From assembly GCA_050011355.1 (NCBI GenBank), contig JBEKJG010000006.1, positions 30,640 through 94,639 on the forward strand: 64,000 nucleotides of DNA, read 5' to 3'. The position numbers were made by a program, and so were the translations under genes. Source of the DNA: Thermoplasmata archaeon (GTDB taxonomy: Archaea; Thermoplasmatota; Thermoplasmata; Lutacidiplasmatales; UBA184). The notes below the pieces were generated by a model. That model searched no databases. It was not told the origin of the DNA and saw only the letters and a program-made list of their open reading frames with translations. Positions 3,410 to 63,598 of this stretch are shown here, piece after piece (positions within the stretch are counted from its first letter, which is position 1; each line of letters opens with the position of its first letter).

Positions 3410-3482
3410 GCCGCGGTGGCTCAGCTGGCAGAGCGGCTCCTTGGTAAGGAGCAGGTCGAGGGTTCAAATCCCTCCCGCGGCT
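3410..3482 (+). tRNA. tRNA-Thr (anticodon GGU)
   Basis: Hand-folded cloverleaf. Acceptor GCCGCGG/CCGCGGC, D-stem GCTC/GAGC, anticodon stem GCTCC/GGAGC with loop TTGGTAA, T-arm GAGGG-TTCAAAT-CCCTC, discriminator T. Confidence 0.9.
3458..3482 (+). repeat. Left copy of direct repeat (T-arm stems plus 3' acceptor strand of tRNA-Thr)
   Basis: GAGGG..CCCTCCCGCGGCT. The 13-mer ccctcccgcggct recurs exactly at 5192..5204 and the 17-mer aaatccctcccgcggct recurs 16/17 at 5188..5204. GAGGG also recurs at 5167..5171. Confidence 0.7.
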
Positions 3483-19745: not shown

Positions 19746-19848
19746 AGCGGGGTAGGGTAGTCAGGAAAACGTCCGGGGACCCCGGCCGTCCTGAAATCCC
19801 GACGGGCTCATAACCCGTAGATCCATGGTTCAAATCCATGCCCCGCTA
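19746..19848 (+). tRNA. tRNA-Met (CAU), initiator-like, with a ~28-nt insertion in the D-loop region
   Basis: Acceptor AGCGGGG/CCCCGCT (A1:U72). Anticodon stem ACGGG/CCCGT (three G:C pairs) with loop CTCATAA (CAT at 19809..19811). T-arm CATGG-TTCAAAT-CCATG, discriminator A. There are 38 nt between the D-stem halves GGGT (19755-58) and TCCC (19797-800), against about 9-10 expected. Confidence 0.7.
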
Positions 19849-56904: not shown

Positions 56905-57516
56905 GTGCTCCTCGACCAGTATCGCATCGGGCCGGCGCTGAACTTCACCTACCTCGTGGCCGACGCGGAGGGAGGGGAGGGCGTGGTCATCGACCCGTCC
57001 TACGGCATCGACCCGGTCCTGCGCGCGATCGACGCCAAGCACGTCAAGGTCCGGTACATCCTCAACACGCACAGCCACGCCGACCACACCGCCGGGAACG
57101 GGGACGTGAAGTCCCGGACCGGGGCCAAGGTCCTCGCCCACCGCGTCGCTCCGATCGGCCAGGACGTGTCGGTGGACGACGGCGATCGCTTCCGGGTCGG
57201 GCCGCTCTCGTTCGAGGTCGTCCACACGCCGGGCCACACCAAGGACAGCGTCCTCTACATCTTCGAGGGCAACGTCGCCACGGGCGACACGCTGTTCGTC
57301 GGGGAGTGCGGGCGCACGGACCTGCCGGGCGGCGACCCCTCCGAAATGTACGATTCCCTGCTCCACCGGGTGATCCGGTTGGACGACGCGCTGGTCGTCC
57401 TACCGGGTCATGACTACGGCGTCACGCCCACCTCGACGATCGGGCGGGAAAAGCAGGAGAACTACACGCTCCAGCCGCGGACCCGCGAAGAGTTCCTCGC
57501 CTTCCTGCGGGAGTGA
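56905..57516 (+). CDS. MBL-fold metallo-hydrolase (glyoxalase II-like)
   Basis: ILNTHSHADHTAGN (HxHxDH), TPGHT, and GDTLFVGECGRTD. Confidence 0.85.
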   Translation: MLLDQYRIGPALNFTYLVADAEGGEGVVIDPSYGIDPVLRAIDAKHVKVRYILNTHSHADHTAGNGDVKSRTGAKVLAHRVAPIGQDVSVDDGDRFRVGPLSFEVVHTPGHTKDSVLYIFEGNVATGDTLFVGECGRTDLPGGDPSEMYDSLLHRVIRLDDALVVLPGHDYGVTPTSTIGREKQENYTLQPRTREEFLAFLRE

Positions 57517-58090
57517 GGCCGCCCTGCCGCCCCTCCCCGGCCCCGAGGAACGCTCGCTGCGGGCCACGGGGGCCCGCCGCCCCGCCGAGGGCGCTCCACC
57601 CACCGCCGAACTCGTCCGGAAGCTCCGGGAACTCGGTCGGGATTCCGAGGCGCTGGTCGCGCTCTTCGACGCGGCGGCGGTCGCGGGAGAACGGCATCTC
57701 CTCTCGGCCTGGGCCCACCTCGGCCGGTCCCGGGGCCGCGGGGAGTCCCGCCTTCGCGAGCGGGGCGCCGAATTCGCCCTCTACGTCGCGGGGGAGGACC
57801 AGCTCCCGCGCGCGCTCGCCCGTGTCGGGGTCTCGGACGCGACCCGGCAGTTCGTGGTCGTCGCCGAGCGCCCGCTCGACCCGGCGGAGCTCCTCGTGCG
57901 GTTCGGTCTCACGCCCGACCCCACCGCCTACCCCCGGCCCGTCGATGCGGCGATGCTCGAGCGGCTCGGCGTGACCGAGGTCGAGCGGGCCACGGTGCCG
58001 CCCTCCGCCTGGGAGGGACTGGTGCTCGAGCGCGTGGCGCTCGTCGACCTGACCACGCCCTCCGGCCACGGGACGACGGCAAAGCATTAG
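57410..58090 (+). CDS. cgi121: KEOPS subunit Cgi121-like protein (start uncertain)
   Basis: LVALFDAAAV...AEFALYVAGEDQLPRALARVGVSD...QFVVVAE...LVLERVALVDL parallels archaeal Cgi121. ATG 57410 would overlap the MBL gene by 107 nt. The fold seems to begin near CTG 57557. Confidence 0.55.
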   Translation: MTTASRPPRRSGGKSRRTTRSSRGPAKSSSPSCGSEAALPPLPGPEERSLRATGARRPAEGAPPTAELVRKLRELGRDSEALVALFDAAAVAGERHLLSAWAHLGRSRGRGESRLRERGAEFALYVAGEDQLPRALARVGVSDATRQFVVVAERPLDPAELLVRFGLTPDPTAYPRPVDAAMLERLGVTEVERATVPPSAWEGLVLERVALVDLTTPSGHGTTAKH

Positions 58091-58130: not shown

Positions 58131-58232
58131 GCAGGTGTAATCTAGTGGCTAGGATGTCAGCCCTCCAAGCTGACCACCCGGGTTCGAATCGGCGGACCGT
58201 CCCGATCCGCCGCGGATCTCCCGGCACCTGCA
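58131..58232 (+). tRNA. tRNA-Gly (UCC) with a 30-nt insertion in the T-loop and C at position 33
   Basis: Acceptor GCAGGTG/CACCTGC (7/7). D-arm ATCT-AGTGGCTA-GGAT. Anticodon stem TCAGC/GCTGA with loop CCTCCAA (TCC at 58164..58166). T-stem CCGGG (58178-82) and CCCGG (58220-24). TTCGAAT is followed by 30 extra nt (58190..58219). Discriminator A. Confidence 0.6.
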
Positions 58233-58294
58233 CTCCCCGACGCCCGTGGGCCCCGGGCGAGGGTTTATTCCCGCCGGACCCGCTCGCTGTTCGC

Positions 58295-59198: not shown

Positions 59199-61829
59199 AT
59201 GCCCGATACTGCCGCCAGCACGCCGCTCATGGAGCAGTACGAGGGCGTCCGAGCGCGGTATCCGGGCCACCTCGTCCTCTTCCGGGTCGGCGACTTCTAC
59301 GAGACGTTCGGGGAGGATGCCGGCGTCCTCTCTCGGGCCGTCGACGTGGTACTGACCGCCCGCTCGGCGGACGCCCAGGGCGTGCGAATCCCGATGGCGG
59401 GTGTTCCGCACCACGCGATCGACACCTACCTCGGTCGACTGGTCCGCAAGGGGTTCAAGGTCGCCCTGTGCGACCAGGTCGAGGACGCGCGGTTCGCCAA
59501 GGGCCTGGTCCGACGGGAGGTCACGCGGGTCGTCACGCCCGGCACGGTCGTGGAGGACCGCATCCTGGGCGGGCCGGACCACAGCTTCCTCGCGGTCGCG
59601 CGCGAGGGGGAAGCCGCGCCCGGCGAGTTCGCTGCGGTCGACATCACGACCGGAGAGTGGTACCACGGTCGGGGCGACGGACCGGGACCCGAGGGACTCG
59701 CCTCCGCGCTCGCGCCGTTCCAGCCGAGGGAGATCCTGTGGTCGGTCGGTCCGGACGCTCCACCCACGCTGGCCCGGTTGCTCGCGCGGGAGTACCCCGC
59801 CGCCCGACTCGACGTCGCGCCCGCCCCGATGCTCCCCGACGAGCTTCCGGAGCGGGTCCGGGTCGGGTTCCGTGGCGAGGACGCGCTCACGAAAGCCGAC
59901 CTTCAGCTGGCCGCCTACCTTCGGGTGACCCAGCCCCGTCTCCTGCCGCACCTGGAACTAGTCCCCGGCGCGGCCGGCACCCGACGGCTTGCGTTGGACG
60001 CGAAGACGCTCCGACACCTCGAGATCCGTCGACCGATGAACCCGGACGACCCGTCCGGTCCGACCCTGCTCGAGACCTGGGACCTCACGGTGACCGCCCC
60101 CGGCCGGAGGACCCTTGCGTTCTGGCTGTCCAACCCGCTCGCCGATCTCGCCACCGTCCGGGAGCGTCAGGACGCCGTGGCGGCGCTCCTCGGTCGGGGC
60201 GCGTTCCTGGACGAGCTCCGCGCGAAGCTGCACACCGTCGCCGACCTGGCGCGGATCGCGTCGCGGGTAGCCGGCCGACGCGTGCGCCCCCCCGAGCTCG
60301 GGGTCCTGCGCGAAGGCCTCGAGGCGGCCGAGCGACTCTGGCCGCTCCTCGCCGAGGGGGCGGGCAGCGCGCGTCTCGACCGCGTCCGCGATGCGCTCCG
60401 TCCCCCTCCCGAGCTCCTCCAGCTGCTCCAGGTCACGCTGGCCGAGGCGTTGCCGGCCAAGGAGGAGGACGGCGGTCTGTTCCGGGCCGGCCACGCGCCC
60501 GAGGTCGACCGCTGGCGCGGGGCGGAGCAGGGAGCGCTCGCCGAGCTCGGGCAGCTCGAGCGGACCGAGCAGGAGGCGACCGGGATCAAGACCCTCCGCA
60601 TCGCCTACAACCAGGTCTTCGGCTACTACATCGAGGTCACCCGCCCCCATCTGGCCCGGGTCCCGCCGCATTTCCGCCGACGGCAGACCGTCGCCCAGGC
60701 GGAACGGTTCACGAGCGATCGGCTGGAAGAGATCGAGCACCGGATCCTCGAGGCCCGCGAGAAGGCCCGGGACGCCGAGGGGGTCGAGTGGGAGCGACTG
60801 CTCGCCGCGGTCGACGACCACGTACCGGCGGTGCACCGGGTCGCTCGGGCGCTGGGAGAGCTCGACGTCCTCGCGACGTTCGCCCACCTCGCCCAGACCC
60901 GGGGCTACATCCGGCCTACCGTCGACGAATCCGCGGCGCTCGTCATTCGGGACGGGCGTCACCCCGTCCTGGAACGGCTCGACAGTTCCGGGTTCGTCCC
61001 GAACGACACCGAGCTCGACCCCGAGCACGGCCGGCTGATCGTCCTCACCGGCCCGAACATGTCGGGGAAGTCGACCTACATGCGGCAGGTCGGGCTGATC
61101 GTGGTACTCGCCCAGGCGGGGTCGTACGTCCCGGCCCGGTTCGCCCGCATCGGGCTGGTCACCCGCCTGTTCACCCGCATGGGCTTCACCGACGAGATCG
61201 GACGCGGCAAGTCGAGCTTCATGGTGGAGATGAGCGAGGTCGCGGAGATCCTCCACGCCGCCGACGACCGCTCGCTCGTCCTCCTGGACGAGGTCGGCCG
61301 CGGCACGAGCACCTTCGACGGGCTCGCGATCGCGTGGGCCACGGTGCGTCATCTTCACGACCGGACCCGTGCCCGTTGCCTTCTCGCGACCCACTACCAC
61401 CAGCTCACCGAGCTCGTCGGATCCCTGGGCGAGGCACGCAACGCCCACCTCGCCGTGCGCGAGGGACCGGAGGGGATCGTCTTTCTCCATCGGCTGGTCC
61501 CCGGGAGCACCGACCGCAGCTACGGGATCCACGTGGCTCGACTGGCGGGCGTCCCCGAGGATGTGCTCGTCGAGGCGGAGCGTCTGCTTCGCCAACTCGA
61601 GACCGACGGCCTCGTCACAGCGGCCCCGGACCGCCGGTCGGGACGCTCGACGCCCCGGTACACCCAGGCGGTCCTCCTCGCCGAACCGGACCGGACTCCC
61701 GACCCCGTCCTAGCGGAGCTTGCGGCCCTCGACCTCGACGCCCTCTCGCCCGAAGCGGCGCGGCAACGCTTGCGGGAACTCCAAGACCGTGCTCGGCGGA
61801 GCACGACGCCCCGGAAGGACCGTTCATGA
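59199..61829 (+). CDS. mutS: DNA mismatch repair protein MutS (MutS1 type)
   Basis: TPLMEQYEGVRARYPGHLVLFRVGDFYETFGEDA (mismatch-binding F-x-E), Walker A GPNMSGKSTYMRQV, DEVGRGTSTFDG, and ATHYHQLT. Confidence 0.9.
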   Translation: MPDTAASTPLMEQYEGVRARYPGHLVLFRVGDFYETFGEDAGVLSRAVDVVLTARSADAQGVRIPMAGVPHHAIDTYLGRLVRKGFKVALCDQVEDARFAKGLVRREVTRVVTPGTVVEDRILGGPDHSFLAVAREGEAAPGEFAAVDITTGEWYHGRGDGPGPEGLASALAPFQPREILWSVGPDAPPTLARLLAREYPAARLDVAPAPMLPDELPERVRVGFRGEDALTKADLQLAAYLRVTQPRLLPHLELVPGAAGTRRLALDAKTLRHLEIRRPMNPDDPSGPTLLETWDLTVTAPGRRTLAFWLSNPLADLATVRERQDAVAALLGRGAFLDELRAKLHTVADLARIASRVAGRRVRPPELGVLREGLEAAERLWPLLAEGAGSARLDRVRDALRPPPELLQLLQVTLAEALPAKEEDGGLFRAGHAPEVDRWRGAEQGALAELGQLERTEQEATGIKTLRIAYNQVFGYYIEVTRPHLARVPPHFRRRQTVAQAERFTSDRLEEIEHRILEAREKARDAEGVEWERLLAAVDDHVPAVHRVARALGELDVLATFAHLAQTRGYIRPTVDESAALVIRDGRHPVLERLDSSGFVPNDTELDPEHGRLIVLTGPNMSGKSTYMRQVGLIVVLAQAGSYVPARFARIGLVTRLFTRMGFTDEIGRGKSSFMVEMSEVAEILHAADDRSLVLLDEVGRGTSTFDGLAIAWATVRHLHDRTRARCLLATHYHQLTELVGSLGEARNAHLAVREGPEGIVFLHRLVPGSTDRSYGIHVARLAGVPEDVLVEAERLLRQLETDGLVTAAPDRRSGRSTPRYTQAVLLAEPDRTPDPVLAELAALDLDALSPEAARQRLRELQDRARRSTTPRKDRS

Positions 61830-63598
61830 GTCGAATCCCCCGGCCGGCGCGCCGACCCATCCGACGGCTCGACCCCGCCACGGTCGAGCGGATCGCCGCC
61901 GGCGAGGTGGTCGAGCGCCCGGCCTCGGTCGTGAAGGAGCTGGTCGAGAACGCGCTCGACGCGGGAGCGTCCACCGTCTCCGTCACGGTCGAGGACGGCG
62001 GTCTCGCGCGCATCGAGGTTTCCGATGACGGCCAGGGGATCCCCGAGGACGAGCTCCCGCTCGCCGTCGAACGGCATGCGACCAGCAAGCTCGACCCCGC
62101 GGGTCCGGTCGACCGGATCGAGTCCCTCGGTTTCCGGGGAGAAGCCCTGGCCGCGATCGGCACCGTGAGCCGTTTGCGGATCGTCTCTCGCACCCCCGAC
62201 CGCGAGGAGGCGGCCCTCCTCACGGTCGAGGGAGGGGTGGTCGGTCGCCTCGCCCCCGCGGGCCGAGCCGTGGGTACCACCGTCGAAGTGCGTGACCTCT
62301 TCTACAACACGCCGGCTCGACGGAAGTTCCTTCGGAGCCCGGCGGCGGAACAGGTCGAGGTCGTCTCGACCGTCGAGCGGCTGTACCTCGCGCGCCCGGA
62401 CGCCACCTACCGGGTACGCGGTGCGGACCGGGAGCTCGCGGTCTATCCGGCCGCCGCGAGCCTGCGGGACGCCGCGGCGCGCGTGCTCGGCCCTTCGCTG
62501 CTCCGGGAATCGTTCGAGGTCGCAGGGGAGATCCCCGGCGGGCATCTCCGGGGGACGTTGGGCCGCCCGGCCACGGCGACCTCGACCTCGCGCGGGCTCC
62601 ACTTCTCGGTCAACGGACGGACGATCCTCTCCCGGCCGCTCGCGCAGGCGGTGCGCGCCGCCTTCGGAGACTACGTGCCCCGCTCCCGTTTCCCGGTAGG
62701 TGTACTGTCGCTCGAGTTTGCGAGCGACCGCGTCGATGTGAACGTGCATCCCACGAAGCGGGAGGTCCGCTTCGTCCGGGAGCGCGAGCTCGCCGAACGG
62801 ATCCGGGCGCTCGTCCGGGAGGCGCTCCTCTCCTCGCCGGCGGTGGCCGAGCTCGCGGAGAGCCCGCGCCCCGCCGCGCCGGTACGGGGCCGCCCGCCCG
62901 TACGGAGCGGTCCGACGTCGCCTCCCCTCACCCCGGGTCGTCCCGCCTCCCCACGCCAGCGCTCGCTCGTCCCCGCCGCGGACGCTCCCGCCGCTCGGAG
63001 CGTGCCCGCGCGCGGTGCCCATCCCGAGCTCGAGCTGATCGGATGCGTGGGTGCGATCTATTGGGTCGCGGAGTCGGAGGACGGGATCGTGCTCATCGAC
63101 CAACACGCGGCGAGCGAGCGGGTGGTGTACGAGGCCCTCCGCCGGAACGGGACCCTCGCGCGACAGACCCTCATGGCACCGGTCCTCCTCACGCTCTCCG
63201 GCGGGCAGCGGTCGGCGCTGGAGGAGCACGGGGCGGCGGTCCGCGCCGCGGGCTTCGACGTGGACGAGTTCGGACCCGGCACGCACCGCGTGCGCTCCGT
63301 CCCCGCCTACCGCGGCCGCACCGCTCGGCCCGAGGCGTTGGGCGAGCTGCTCACCGAGCTCGCCGAGGGAGGGCGGCCCACGCTCCCGGACGGCCTCGAG
63401 GAGCGCACCGCCGCCTCCATCGCCTGCCACGCGGCGATCCGTGCCGGAGACGTCGTCGAACGGGAGGAGTTCGCCCGCGTCCTCGAGGCGCTCCATGCCC
63501 TCCCCGAGGCCTCCTACTCCTGCCCTCACGGCCGTCCGATCCAGGTGCGGGTCCCGCGCAGCCGGATCGACCGATGGTTCCTCCGCTCGGGCACGTGA
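61826..63598 (+). CDS. mutL: DNA mismatch repair protein MutL with endonuclease motifs
   Basis: The ATG overlaps the mutS stop (ATGA). GHKL ATPase IAAGEVVERPASVVKELVENALDAGAS. Endonuclease DQHAASERVVYE (DQHAx2Ex4E, 63098..63133), ACHAAIR and CPHGRP. Confidence 0.9.
   Translation: MSRIPRPARRPIRRLDPATVERIAAGEVVERPASVVKELVENALDAGASTVSVTVEDGGLARIEVSDDGQGIPEDELPLAVERHATSKLDPAGPVDRIESLGFRGEALAAIGTVSRLRIVSRTPDREEAALLTVEGGVVGRLAPAGRAVGTTVEVRDLFYNTPARRKFLRSPAAEQVEVVSTVERLYLARPDATYRVRGADRELAVYPAAASLRDAAARVLGPSLLRESFEVAGEIPGGHLRGTLGRPATATSTSRGLHFSVNGRTILSRPLAQAVRAAFGDYVPRSRFPVGVLSLEFASDRVDVNVHPTKREVRFVRERELAERIRALVREALLSSPAVAELAESPRPAAPVRGRPPVRSGPTSPPLTPGRPASPRQRSLVPAADAPAARSVPARGAHPELELIGCVGAIYWVAESEDGIVLIDQHAASERVVYEALRRNGTLARQTLMAPVLLTLSGGQRSALEEHGAAVRAAGFDVDEFGPGTHRVRSVPAYRGRTARPEALGELLTELAEGGRPTLPDGLEERTAASIACHAAIRAGDVVEREEFARVLEALHALPEASYSCPHGRPIQVRVPRSRIDRWFLRSGT

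What the first reader, a model, noticed from the sequence alone, without database searches (positions are those of the whole stretch)
58131..58232. tRNA-Gly(UCC) with a 30-nt insertion inside the T-loop and an unusual C33
All four stems pair perfectly, but only if 58190..58219 (cggcggaccgtcccgatccgccgcggatct) is removed between TTCGAAT and the 3' T-stem strand. The insert itself forms a 6-bp hairpin (cggcgg/ccgccg). This position (around 59/60) is a rare non-canonical intron site. In addition the anticodon loop reads CCUCCAA, with C instead of the near-universal U33. Together with the tRNA-Met case, 2 of the 4 tRNAs in this window carry non-canonical insertions.
Basis: partly seen in the sequence, partly recalled or inferred. 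Interest (0 to 1): 0.6.

Follow-up and report, generated by a model that had tools for sequence, protein, structure and literature searches.

The report
Glycine tRNA gene with T-loop intron
This is a working glycine tRNA gene of an uncultured soil archaeon (class Thermoplasmata). A 30-base intron of a known archaeal type splits its T-loop, and it carries an unusual C next to the anticodon; both features are conserved in relatives, so it is a further member of a known kind.

Summary
Removing 30 nt from 58131-58232 gives a clean 73-nt tRNA-Gly(UCC) with anticodon loop CCUCCAA (C33).

**The insert.** It is a bulge-helix-bulge (BHB) intron at position 59/60, best placed at 58189-58218:
- T-stem as outer helix
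- a 4-bp helix between the T-loop bases UUCG and the intron bases CGGA
- two 3-nt bulges
- a 7-bp inner hairpin

**Conservation and host genes.**
- All 24 same-genus genomes sampled keep the intron, with compensatory changes in the hairpin.
- The sister family has the same gene without it.
- The genome encodes a two-repeat (alpha'2) EndA and RtcB.
- This is the only Gly(UCC) gene, and GGA codons are in regular use.

**Wider pattern.**
- 14 of 46 tRNA genes in this genome carry a 59/60 intron.
- All 114 other genomes sampled in the family have 3-13 model hits each.

**C33.**
- It is a real polymorphism: 62 genomes have C and 43 have U.
- It changed at least 3 times within a 22-genome sample of the genus.
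- It is present in all 30 tRNA-Glu(UUC) orthologues examined.

**Known or new.** Introns at 59/60 are already published for ARMAN-2. I found no paper describing them in Thermoplasmata. This scan has already reported the same gene type and the same intron burst on other genomes.

The parts
58081..58090 (+). BRE/TATA-like promoter box (AAAGCATTAG), about 41-50 nt upstream of the mature 5' end; overlaps the stop codon of the upstream Cgi121-like ORF
   Evidence: An A/T-rich box of the form AAAG-NN-TTA-R is kept at the same distance in nearly all of 24 orthologous loci, in DNA that is otherwise 68% G+C. The promoter function is inferred.
58131..58188 (+). 5' exon, tRNA positions 1-59 (acceptor 5' strand, D-arm, anticodon arm, variable region, T-stem 5' strand, T-loop U54-A59)
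   Evidence: ARAGORN on the spliced sequence; alignment of 24 orthologues; pair counts.
58163..58163 (+). C33, where nearly all tRNAs have U33
   Evidence: Sequence. C33 in 62 and U33 in 43 of 121 genomes of the order, never both in one genome. At least 3 changes on a flank tree.
58164..58166 (+). Anticodon UCC (reads GGA, probably also GGG)
   Evidence: It is the only Gly(UCC) gene in the genome census. GGA is used at about 14.5 per 1000 codons.
58178..58182 (+). T-stem 5' strand, which is the outer (exonic) helix of the BHB
   Evidence: Pairs with 58220-58224; 100% paired in 24 orthologues.
58183..58186 (+). Central 4-bp helix, 5' strand: T-loop U54 U55 C56 G57
   Evidence: Pairs with 58213-58216 (CGGA); 96.9% of cells paired in orthologues; present in the MFE fold.
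58187..58189 (+). 5' bulge (AAU); 5' splice site after its second base (58188|58189)
   Evidence: The third bulge base varies among orthologues and paralogues, so it is intronic. This is the canonical BHB layout (PMC4090602).
58189..58218 (+). Intron, 30 nt, between tRNA positions 59 and 60
   Evidence: Found independently by a genome-wide strict-BHB scan followed by ARAGORN.
58190..58196 (+). Inner (intronic) helix, 5' strand
   Evidence: Pairs with 58206-58212. Six of 7 pairs show changes on both sides among 24 orthologues, and 0 of 500 shuffles reach the observed covariation.
58206..58212 (+). Inner (intronic) helix, 3' strand
58213..58216 (+). Central 4-bp helix, 3' strand (intronic CGGA)
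58217..58219 (+). 3' bulge (UCU); 3' splice site after its second base (58218|58219)
   Evidence: The third bulge base is T in all 25 orthologues and all 14 paralogues, which supplies U60.
58219..58232 (+). 3' exon, tRNA positions 60-73 (U60, T-stem 3' strand, acceptor 3' strand, discriminator A73); CCA is not encoded

Best explanation
58131-58232 is the single functional gene for tRNA-Gly(UCC) of a high-GC Thermoplasmata soil archaeon, most likely of the order Lutacidiplasmatales (TMEG/UBA184). The proposed pathway has four steps. (1) The gene is transcribed from a BRE/TATA-like box upstream, with a 30-nt intron between positions 59 and 60. (2) In the precursor the T-loop cannot form. Instead U54-G57 pair with the intron's 3' CGGA, so that T-stem, 3-nt bulge, 4-bp helix, 3-nt bulge and intron hairpin make a strict hBHBh' motif. 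(3) The genome's homodimeric two-repeat (alpha'2) EndA cuts after the second base of each bulge, and RtcB joins A59 to U60. (4) This restores the UUCGAAU T-loop, after which T-loop modification and L-shape folding can proceed. The mature tRNA keeps C33 and decodes GGA. Shown here: the anatomy, its conservation and covariation, that this is the sole gene for the anticodon, and that the enzyme genes are present. Inferred: transcription, splicing in vivo, the order of processing steps, and that C33 stays unmodified.
For: - Splicing in silico gives a canonical tRNA-Gly(tcc).
- The unconstrained MFE fold of the precursor contains the BHB with the acceptor, anticodon and T stems; z = -3.7.
- 24 of 24 same-genus genomes keep an intron of 30-34 nt at the same site with the BHB intact.
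- 97% of pair cells are paired. Six of 7 inner-helix pairs show double-sided changes, and 0 of 500 shuffles reach the observed values.
- The exonic U60 is invariant, whereas the first intron base varies.
- The gene has the intron in all 7 genera of the family: model hits lie next to the Gly anticodon-loop pattern. The intron is absent from the sister family's otherwise similar gene.
- After intron removal the genome has 46 tRNAs with only Pro(UGG) missing. Gly(UCC) occurs once, and GGA is used at 14.5 per 1000 codons.
- EndA is one reading frame with two catalytic domains. Its best solved relative is the A. fulgidus alpha'2 enzyme, E = 1e-30. RtcB is present.
- Published: alpha'2 and alpha4 enzymes cut strict BHB motifs irrespective of the mature tRNA domain (PMC3488258).
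- Published: strict and relaxed BHB introns at 59/60 exist in ARMAN-2 (PMC3239211).
Against: - There are no RNA data, so splicing and the state of position 33 in the mature tRNA are not observed.
- C33 removes the N3-H donor of the U-turn and is very rare in elongator tRNAs. One might therefore suspect reduced function.
- Reviews state that Euryarchaeota with alpha4 or alpha'2 EndA carry introns only at 37/38 (PMC4090602; PMC4033280). This lineage contradicts that generalisation.
- The assembly is a 93.8%-complete MAG, so a second Gly(UCC) gene in unassembled DNA cannot be excluded for this genome alone.
Confidence: 0.93

Rival explanations
1. The gene is a decaying pseudogene: a tRNA-Gly copy disrupted by a 30-nt insertion and a U33C mutation, with glycine GGA decoding done by another tRNA.
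For: ARAGORN and Rfam do not call it as it stands. C33 is atypical.
Against: - There is no other Gly(UCC) gene in the genome.
- The exons are almost invariant, and the intron helices covary, across 24 species.
- The same architecture is seen in all 114 other family genomes sampled.
- A promoter-like box is conserved upstream.
- C33 also occurs in intron-less orthologues of the sister family.
Confidence: 0.02
2. The 30 nt are not removed. The mature tRNA keeps an enlarged T-arm, or the RNA has a non-translational role.
For: No RNA evidence for splicing is available.
Against: - The insert prevents formation of the universal T-loop needed for the D/T-loop elbow.
- Its flanks form exactly the 3-4-3 substrate of EndA.
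- Selection keeps the splice-site geometry and U60 but not the hairpin sequence.
- 14 different essential isoacceptors share the design.
Confidence: 0.03
3. This concerns why the intron persists, not what it is. The T-loop introns may be kept by selection because they break the T-arm-to-3'-end sequence that tRNA-targeting integrative elements use as an attachment site (the Randau and Soll idea), rather than being neutral relics of an old burst.
For: - Earlier notes of this scan report integrase-less cassettes anchored at the 3' ends of tRNA-Thr and tRNA-Met in this window, and both genes lack a T-loop intron.
- The hypothesis is published for archaeal introns in general (cited in PMC3488258).
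- The two att-like copies of tRNA 3' ends that my scan found outside tRNA genes belong to intron-less tRNAs, Gln-UUG and Pro-GGG.
Against: - My repeat scan was low-powered, gave only two such hits, and did not recover the Thr or Met repeats.
- The same tRNA set carries the intron across genera, which fits simple vertical inheritance.
- No experimental support exists.
Confidence: 0.15
4. C33 is converted after transcription (C-to-U editing or another modification), so the mature tRNA has a normal U-turn.
For: C-to-U editing of tRNA exists in archaea: CDAT8 acts at position 8 in Methanopyrus (own knowledge). Frequent C/U toggling at the DNA level would be harmless if C were edited.
Against: - No cytidine-deaminase-fold (PF00383) gene was found in this 93.8%-complete genome, and only one THUMP protein.
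- C33 elongator tRNAs are reported unedited elsewhere as gene features: Sulfolobales tRNA-Cys (PMC7668247) and metazoan and plant initiator tRNA (PMC8887486).
Confidence: 0.08

Closest known systems
ARMAN-2 (Candidatus Micrarchaeum acidiphilum) pre-tRNA-Pro(GGG) and pre-tRNA-Cys(GCA) introns at 59/60 (Fujishima et al. 2011, PMC3239211; Hirata et al. 2012, PMC3488258)
   Same: The intron lies in the T-loop between positions 59 and 60. In the Pro(GGG) case the motif is a strict hBHBh' built on the T-arm. Removal is by a protein endonuclease plus a ligase.
   Different: ARMAN-2 is a DPANN archaeon with a three-unit epsilon2 EndA of broad specificity, and many of its introns are relaxed. Here the host is a Thermoplasmata lineage with a plain two-repeat alpha'2 EndA. 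The intron is in tRNA-Gly(UCC), and the same site is used in about 30% of the tRNA genes.
Non-canonical and multiple tRNA introns of Thermoproteales (Sugahara et al. 2007-2009; Fujishima et al. 2010; summarised in PMC4033280 and PMC8450103)
   Same: Short BHB introns have spread within a lineage to non-37/38 positions in many tRNA genes. Orthologous introns are then inherited vertically.
   Different: Those hosts have the heterotetrameric (alpha-beta)2 EndA and use many different positions, often with hBH or HBh' motifs. Here one position dominates and the enzyme is alpha'2.
Canonical archaeal 37/38 BHB introns cut by alpha'2 EndA (H. volcanii tRNA-Trp, A. fulgidus; PMC4090602, PMC3488258)
   Same: The same 3-4-3 motif, the same enzyme class, and the same cut after the second bulge base. 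The enzyme recognises the motif independently of the mature domain.
   Different: The exonic half of the motif is the T-stem and T-loop instead of the anticodon stem and loop.
C33 tRNAs: initiator tRNA-Met of multicellular eukaryotes (PMC8887486) and tRNA-Cys(GCA) of Sulfolobales (PMC7668247)
   Same: A genomically encoded C replaces the near-universal U33.
   Different: Here it is in elongator tRNA-Gly(UCC), polymorphic with U33, and in tRNA-Glu(UUC), where all 30 orthologues examined have it. Both tRNAs have a C32-C33-U34 loop and read GNN codons.

Membership tests
Archaeal BHB (hBHBh') tRNA intron spliced by EndA and RtcB | Two 3-nt bulges separated by a 4-bp helix, flanked by an exonic and an intronic helix | tested here: met
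   58178-58224 by inspection. It is the MFE structure, was found by a blind strict-BHB scan, and is kept in 25 orthologues.
Archaeal BHB (hBHBh') tRNA intron spliced by EndA and RtcB | Cutting after the second base of each bulge and joining gives a canonical mature tRNA | tested here: met
   ARAGORN on the spliced sequence gives a 73-nt Gly(tcc) with a 7-nt T-loop. U60 is always supplied by the 3' bulge.
Archaeal BHB (hBHBh') tRNA intron spliced by EndA and RtcB | Helices are maintained by compensatory change while the loop sequence drifts | tested here: met
   6 of 7 inner-helix pairs changed on both sides. Shuffle and slide controls are far lower.
Archaeal BHB (hBHBh') tRNA intron spliced by EndA and RtcB | The host encodes the splicing endonuclease and the RNA ligase | tested here: met
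   EndA with two PF01974 domains in one frame, most similar to A. fulgidus alpha'2 EndA. RtcB scores 579 bits.
Archaeal BHB (hBHBh') tRNA intron spliced by EndA and RtcB | The intron is actually excised in the cell | not testable with these tools
   No transcriptome or tRNA-seq data are held.
Non-canonical 59/60 (T-loop) intron class | The intron lies between tRNA positions 59 and 60 | tested here: met
   The 5' exon ends with ..UUCGAA and the 3' exon begins with U60 followed by the T-stem 3' strand. The published site is described in PMC3239211.
Functional elongator tRNA-Gly | Cloverleaf with anticodon NCC; C35 and C36; discriminator A73 (archaeal/eukaryal GlyRS identity set, from own knowledge) | tested here: met
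   anticodon UCC, A73, and G1-C72, C2-G71 invariant in 24 orthologues.
Functional elongator tRNA-Gly | U33 (U-turn nucleotide) | tested here: not met
   C at 58163. The deviation is shared by 62 of 121 related genomes, so it does not argue for a pseudogene.
Functional elongator tRNA-Gly | It is needed: the sole gene for its anticodon, and its codon is in use | tested here: met
   Census; GGA at 14.5 per 1000 codons.

The most novel reading that the evidence does not exclude
The gene is one member of a family-wide burst of T-loop (59/60) introns affecting about 30% of tRNA genes in a Thermoplasmata family whose only EndA is the 'strict' alpha'2 type. Half of these introns have an imperfect central helix, usually an A57.G mismatch, yet sit in sole-copy essential tRNAs. 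If they are all spliced, two things follow: the textbook link between EndA architecture and intron position or motif strictness does not hold, and the universal T-arm serves as a portable exonic half of the splice motif that let one intron design colonise many tRNAs. In addition, C33 would be a working alternative to U33 in elongator tRNAs with C32-C33-U34 loops (Glu-UUC and, toggling with U33, Gly-UCC).
Probability: 0.3. Interest if true: 0.6.

Novelty: new member of a known kind. Interest (0 to 1): 0.4.

Why it matters
For annotation: standard finders without BHB-aware splicing miss or mis-call these genes. ARAGORN missed Gly(UCC) and 11 other tRNA genes with this intron in this genome. It called two more, Gln(CUG) and Glu(CUC), as intact using a false T-arm. 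tRNA complements of Lutacidiplasmatales-like MAGs will therefore look incomplete.

For biology:
- It extends non-canonical-position introns, in large numbers, to a euryarchaeal-type lineage with an alpha'2 endonuclease. That tests the published co-evolution rule between EndA type and intron position.
- It gives a natural series of C33 and U33 alleles of one elongator tRNA for studying how strictly the U-turn nucleotide is required.

Tried and rejected
- **Finders as they stand.** ARAGORN, with or without its intron option, and the Rfam gathering threshold did not find the gene. Only a partial Rfam match appeared.
- **Strict-BHB genome scan.** The scan followed by ARAGORN found only 3 of the T-loop introns with no intact call to compare (Gly, His, Arg-UCG), plus Glu-CUC among hits that overlapped intact calls. 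A position-specific scan was needed to find the rest.
- **Discarded candidate.** A Pro(UGG) candidate at C1:2340-2380 does not look like a tRNA on inspection.
- **First covariance model.** R1, built from Gly orthologues only, was too gene-specific, and its automatic alignment A3 was noisy. It was replaced by R2.
- **Glu(UUC) pattern search.** Allowing 3 mismatches mostly hit tRNA-Val or missed divergent stems. It was replaced by a BLAST search with loci.
- **Test of the anti-integration idea.** A search for copies of tRNA 3' ends was inconclusive.
- **Test for sequence relatedness among the 14 intron hairpins.** It gave only weak signal: top-10 pair scores p about 0.01, overall mean p = 0.12. 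I therefore do not claim gene-to-gene copying from this genome alone.
- **Search for a cytidine deaminase** that could edit C33 found none.
- **Literature.** Sugahara et al. 2007 (PMC1852824) is not held. Searches found no paper on T-loop introns in Thermoplasmata.

Full report
**1. Observation.**
Window 58131-58232 reads as a tRNA only if 30 nt are removed from the T-loop.
- ARAGORN finds two tRNAs in the window (Thr at 3410, Ser at 58294) and not this one.
- Rfam at gathering threshold agrees. At a permissive threshold it gives a partial tRNA match of 21.1 bits at 58136-58194 that breaks off in the T-loop.
ARAGORN calls it a 73-nt tRNA-Gly(tcc) with acceptor, D, anticodon and T stems paired and anticodon loop CCUCCAA.
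- C33 is window base 58163 and the anticodon is 58164-58166.

**2. Anatomy of the insert.**
The flanks form a textbook archaeal bulge-helix-bulge motif:

| Element | Window coordinates |
|---|---|
| T-stem (outer helix) | 58178-58182 with 58220-58224 |
| Central 4-bp helix (T-loop U54-G57 with intronic CGGA) | 58183-58186 with 58213-58216 |
| 5' bulge, 3 nt | 58187-58189 |
| 3' bulge, 3 nt | 58217-58219 |
| Inner helix, 7 bp | 58190-58196 with 58206-58212 |

- An unconstrained ViennaRNA fold of the whole 102-nt precursor returns this structure together with the acceptor, anticodon and T stems; the D-arm pairing is shifted (-46.2 kcal/mol; shuffles -34.5 +/- 3.2; z = -3.7).
- In the canonical motif the cut falls after the second base of each bulge (layout described in PMC4090602). 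That puts the intron at 58189-58218, exactly between positions 59 and 60.

**3. Comparative evidence.**
- A BLAST of the locus against 40 relatives found a full-length match, intron included, in all 24 genomes of the same genus. Four genomes of a sister family and one further class member have the same tRNA without an intron.
- In the 25 intron-bearing copies the intron is 30-34 nt. The central helix is UUCR paired with CGRA, and the third base of the 3' bulge is always T. The third base of the 5' bulge is A or T. This is what is expected if the former becomes U60 and the latter is discarded.
- On an alignment of 24 orthologues (A1; I left out the unpublished genome G019), 97% of pair cells are standard pairs. 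Six of 7 inner-helix pairs have changes on both sides. None of 500 shuffles reaches the observed values, and sliding the partner by 1-3 columns drops pairing to 34-45%.
- A BRE/TATA-like A/T-rich box about 41-50 nt upstream of the gene is kept in nearly all orthologous loci, in DNA that is otherwise 68% G+C.

**4. Host and machinery.**
- The genome is a 2.10-Mb, 68% G+C, 71-contig assembly, 93.8% complete.
- Its AspRS is 80-83% identical to those of Thermoplasmata MAGs from acidic soils (AcS and SubAcS isolates). These are the genomes on which the order Lutacidiplasmatales was founded, described as about 69% G+C and 2.1 Mb (PMC9287336). That paper does not mention introns.
- The genome encodes one EndA with two catalytic domains in a single frame. 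Its best solved relative is the homodimeric alpha'2 enzyme of Archaeoglobus fulgidus (E = 1e-30). It also encodes an RtcB ligase.
- According to Hirata et al. 2012, alpha'2 and alpha4 enzymes need a strict BHB but recognise it independently of the mature tRNA body (PMC3488258). A strict motif in the T-arm is therefore a plausible substrate.

**5. The gene is needed.**
- After removing the T-loop introns described below, the genome holds 46 tRNA genes and lacks only Pro(UGG). Gly(UCC) occurs once, beside Gly(GCC) and Gly(CCC).
- GGA makes up about 14.5 per 1000 codons in a crude set of 496 long high-GC3 reading frames.
- The pseudogene reading is therefore not tenable.

**6. It is not an isolated case.**
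- A scan for any 10-120-nt insert at 59/60 that restores a T-stem, followed by ARAGORN, found the same design (26-38 nt introns) in 14 tRNA genes of this genome. They are His, Asp, Asn, Gly-UCC, Glu-CUC, Gln-CUG, Ala-GGC, Arg-UCU, Arg-UCG, Leu-UAG, Ser-GGA, Ser-CGA, Ser-GCU and Lys-UUU. The Lys gene also has a D-loop intron.
- Each is the only gene for its anticodon.
- Seven have four standard pairs in the central helix. The other seven have a mismatch, mostly A57 opposite G.
- A covariance model of T-arm plus intron (R2) recovers exactly these 14 sites in the genome and nothing else at E <= 1.
- Across 121 genomes of the order it hits all 114 other genomes of the family, in seven genera, with 3-13 hits each. 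It hits only one of six genomes of the two sister families.
- The weak hits outside the family are real 59/60 introns in Lys-UUU, Arg-CCG, Ala-CGC and Arg-UCU. The site therefore exists at low copy elsewhere in the class and expanded in this family. The model was trained on GC-rich sequences, so outgroup counts are lower bounds.
- In three other genera of the family the introns identified sit in largely the same tRNAs, which indicates old, vertically inherited introns.
- A test for sequence relatedness among the 14 hairpins of this genome was only weakly positive.

**7. C33.**
- Exact-pattern searches in the 121 genomes found the Gly(UCC) anticodon arm with C33 in 62 genomes: four genera of the family and all four genomes of one sister family. 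They found U33 in 43 genomes from five genera. No genome had both.
- On a tree of the 1.4-kb upstream flank of 22 same-genus genomes the state changes at least 5 times on the best tree. At least 3 changes are forced by well-supported branches.
- In this genome one other tRNA has C33: Glu(UUC), with loop CCUUCGA. All 30 orthologues fetched, from two genera, have C33 with covarying anticodon stems.
- No PF00383-type cytidine deaminase gene was found, so I expect C33 to persist in the mature RNA.
- Published precedents for C33 are the initiator tRNA of multicellular eukaryotes (PMC8887486) and tRNA-Cys of Sulfolobales (PMC7668247).

**8. Comparison with what is known.**
- Position 59/60 is a published non-canonical site. 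ARMAN-2 pre-tRNA-Cys(GCA) has a relaxed motif there, and pre-tRNA-Pro(GGG) has a strict hBHBh' there (PMC3239211).
- The present gene is thus a new member of a known kind.
- The host is what differs. Reviews state that Euryarchaeota with alpha4 or alpha'2 EndA have few introns, and only at 37/38 (PMC4090602; PMC4033280). This family has about 30% of its tRNA genes interrupted at 59/60, plus D-loop introns.
- My literature searches found no description of this for Thermoplasmata.

**9. Earlier notes of this scan.**
After I had reached the above, a look-up showed that the scan has reported the same things on other genomes:
- tRNA-Gly with a T-loop intron and C33
- tRNA-Glu with C33
- the T-loop intron burst with a plain two-repeat EndA

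Those notes agree with my results. They also gave me the ARMAN-2 citation, which I then read and confirmed.

**10. Unpublished genomes.**
G019, G050 and G061 are flagged as unpublished.
- They enter only the tallies.
- They also supply one of the 25 intron copies and one of the 30 Glu loci.
- They were not used in alignments A1, A2 and A4, in models R1 and R2, or in the tree.
- Removing them changes each count by at most three and changes no conclusion.

Noticed in passing
G000 contig C17:23351-23425 (outside the window): tRNA-Glu(UUC) also has C33 (anticodon loop CCUUCGA). All 30 orthologues fetched from two genera keep C33 while the anticodon stem covaries.
   Followed up: yes
G000 contig C1:80260-80404 (outside the window; locus L125): tRNA-Lys(UUU) is split by two introns, one in the D-loop and one at 59/60. 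ARAGORN mislabels it 'tRNA-Stop(tta)'.
   Followed up: partly
window 19747-19846: Initiator-like tRNA-Met with an insertion of about 28-30 nt in the D-loop (Rfam tRNA 42.3 bits; ARAGORN miscalls it Phe with an intron). This is a second class of non-canonical intron in the genome, also seen in Lys-UUU.
   Followed up: partly
G000 C34:6606-6682 and C10:53955-54027: ARAGORN reports tRNA-Gln(CUG) and tRNA-Glu(CUC) as intact genes by pairing a false T-arm. Both carry a 59/60 intron (Rfam scores only 24.2 and 22.6 bits unspliced). Automated annotations of these MAGs may hold wrong 3' ends.
   Followed up: partly
window 58081-58090: The conserved promoter-like box AAAGCATTAG overlaps the stop codon of the upstream ORF 57410-58090, a weak Cgi121 (KEOPS subunit) match (Pfam E = 9e-5, below the gathering score).
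   Followed up: partly
G000 C3:105463-105531 and C64:2309-2377: Two identical 69-nt tRNA-Arg(GCG) calls with similar flanks and a low Rfam score (32.7 bits). This is either a duplicated contig end or an oddly built tRNA, possibly with a further unrecognised interruption near the 5' end.
   Followed up: no
G000 C20:24274-24296: An exact 23-nt copy of the 3' end of tRNA-Gln(UUG), which is an intron-less gene, lies away from any tRNA. This is an att-like remnant that may mark an integration event.
   Followed up: no
window 59468-63598: Long ORF with MutL domains (HATPase_c, DNA_mis_repair, MutL_C) only in its C-terminal half; the first ~800 residues had no Pfam match. The start may be miscalled in this GC-rich DNA.
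   Followed up: no
G000 intron hairpins of His, Asp, Asn and Ser-CGA: These four T-loop introns share a CGGGG-N5-7-CCCCG hairpin core. The pairwise similarity of the top pairs is above shuffles (p about 0.01), hinting at common descent of some introns.
   Followed up: partly
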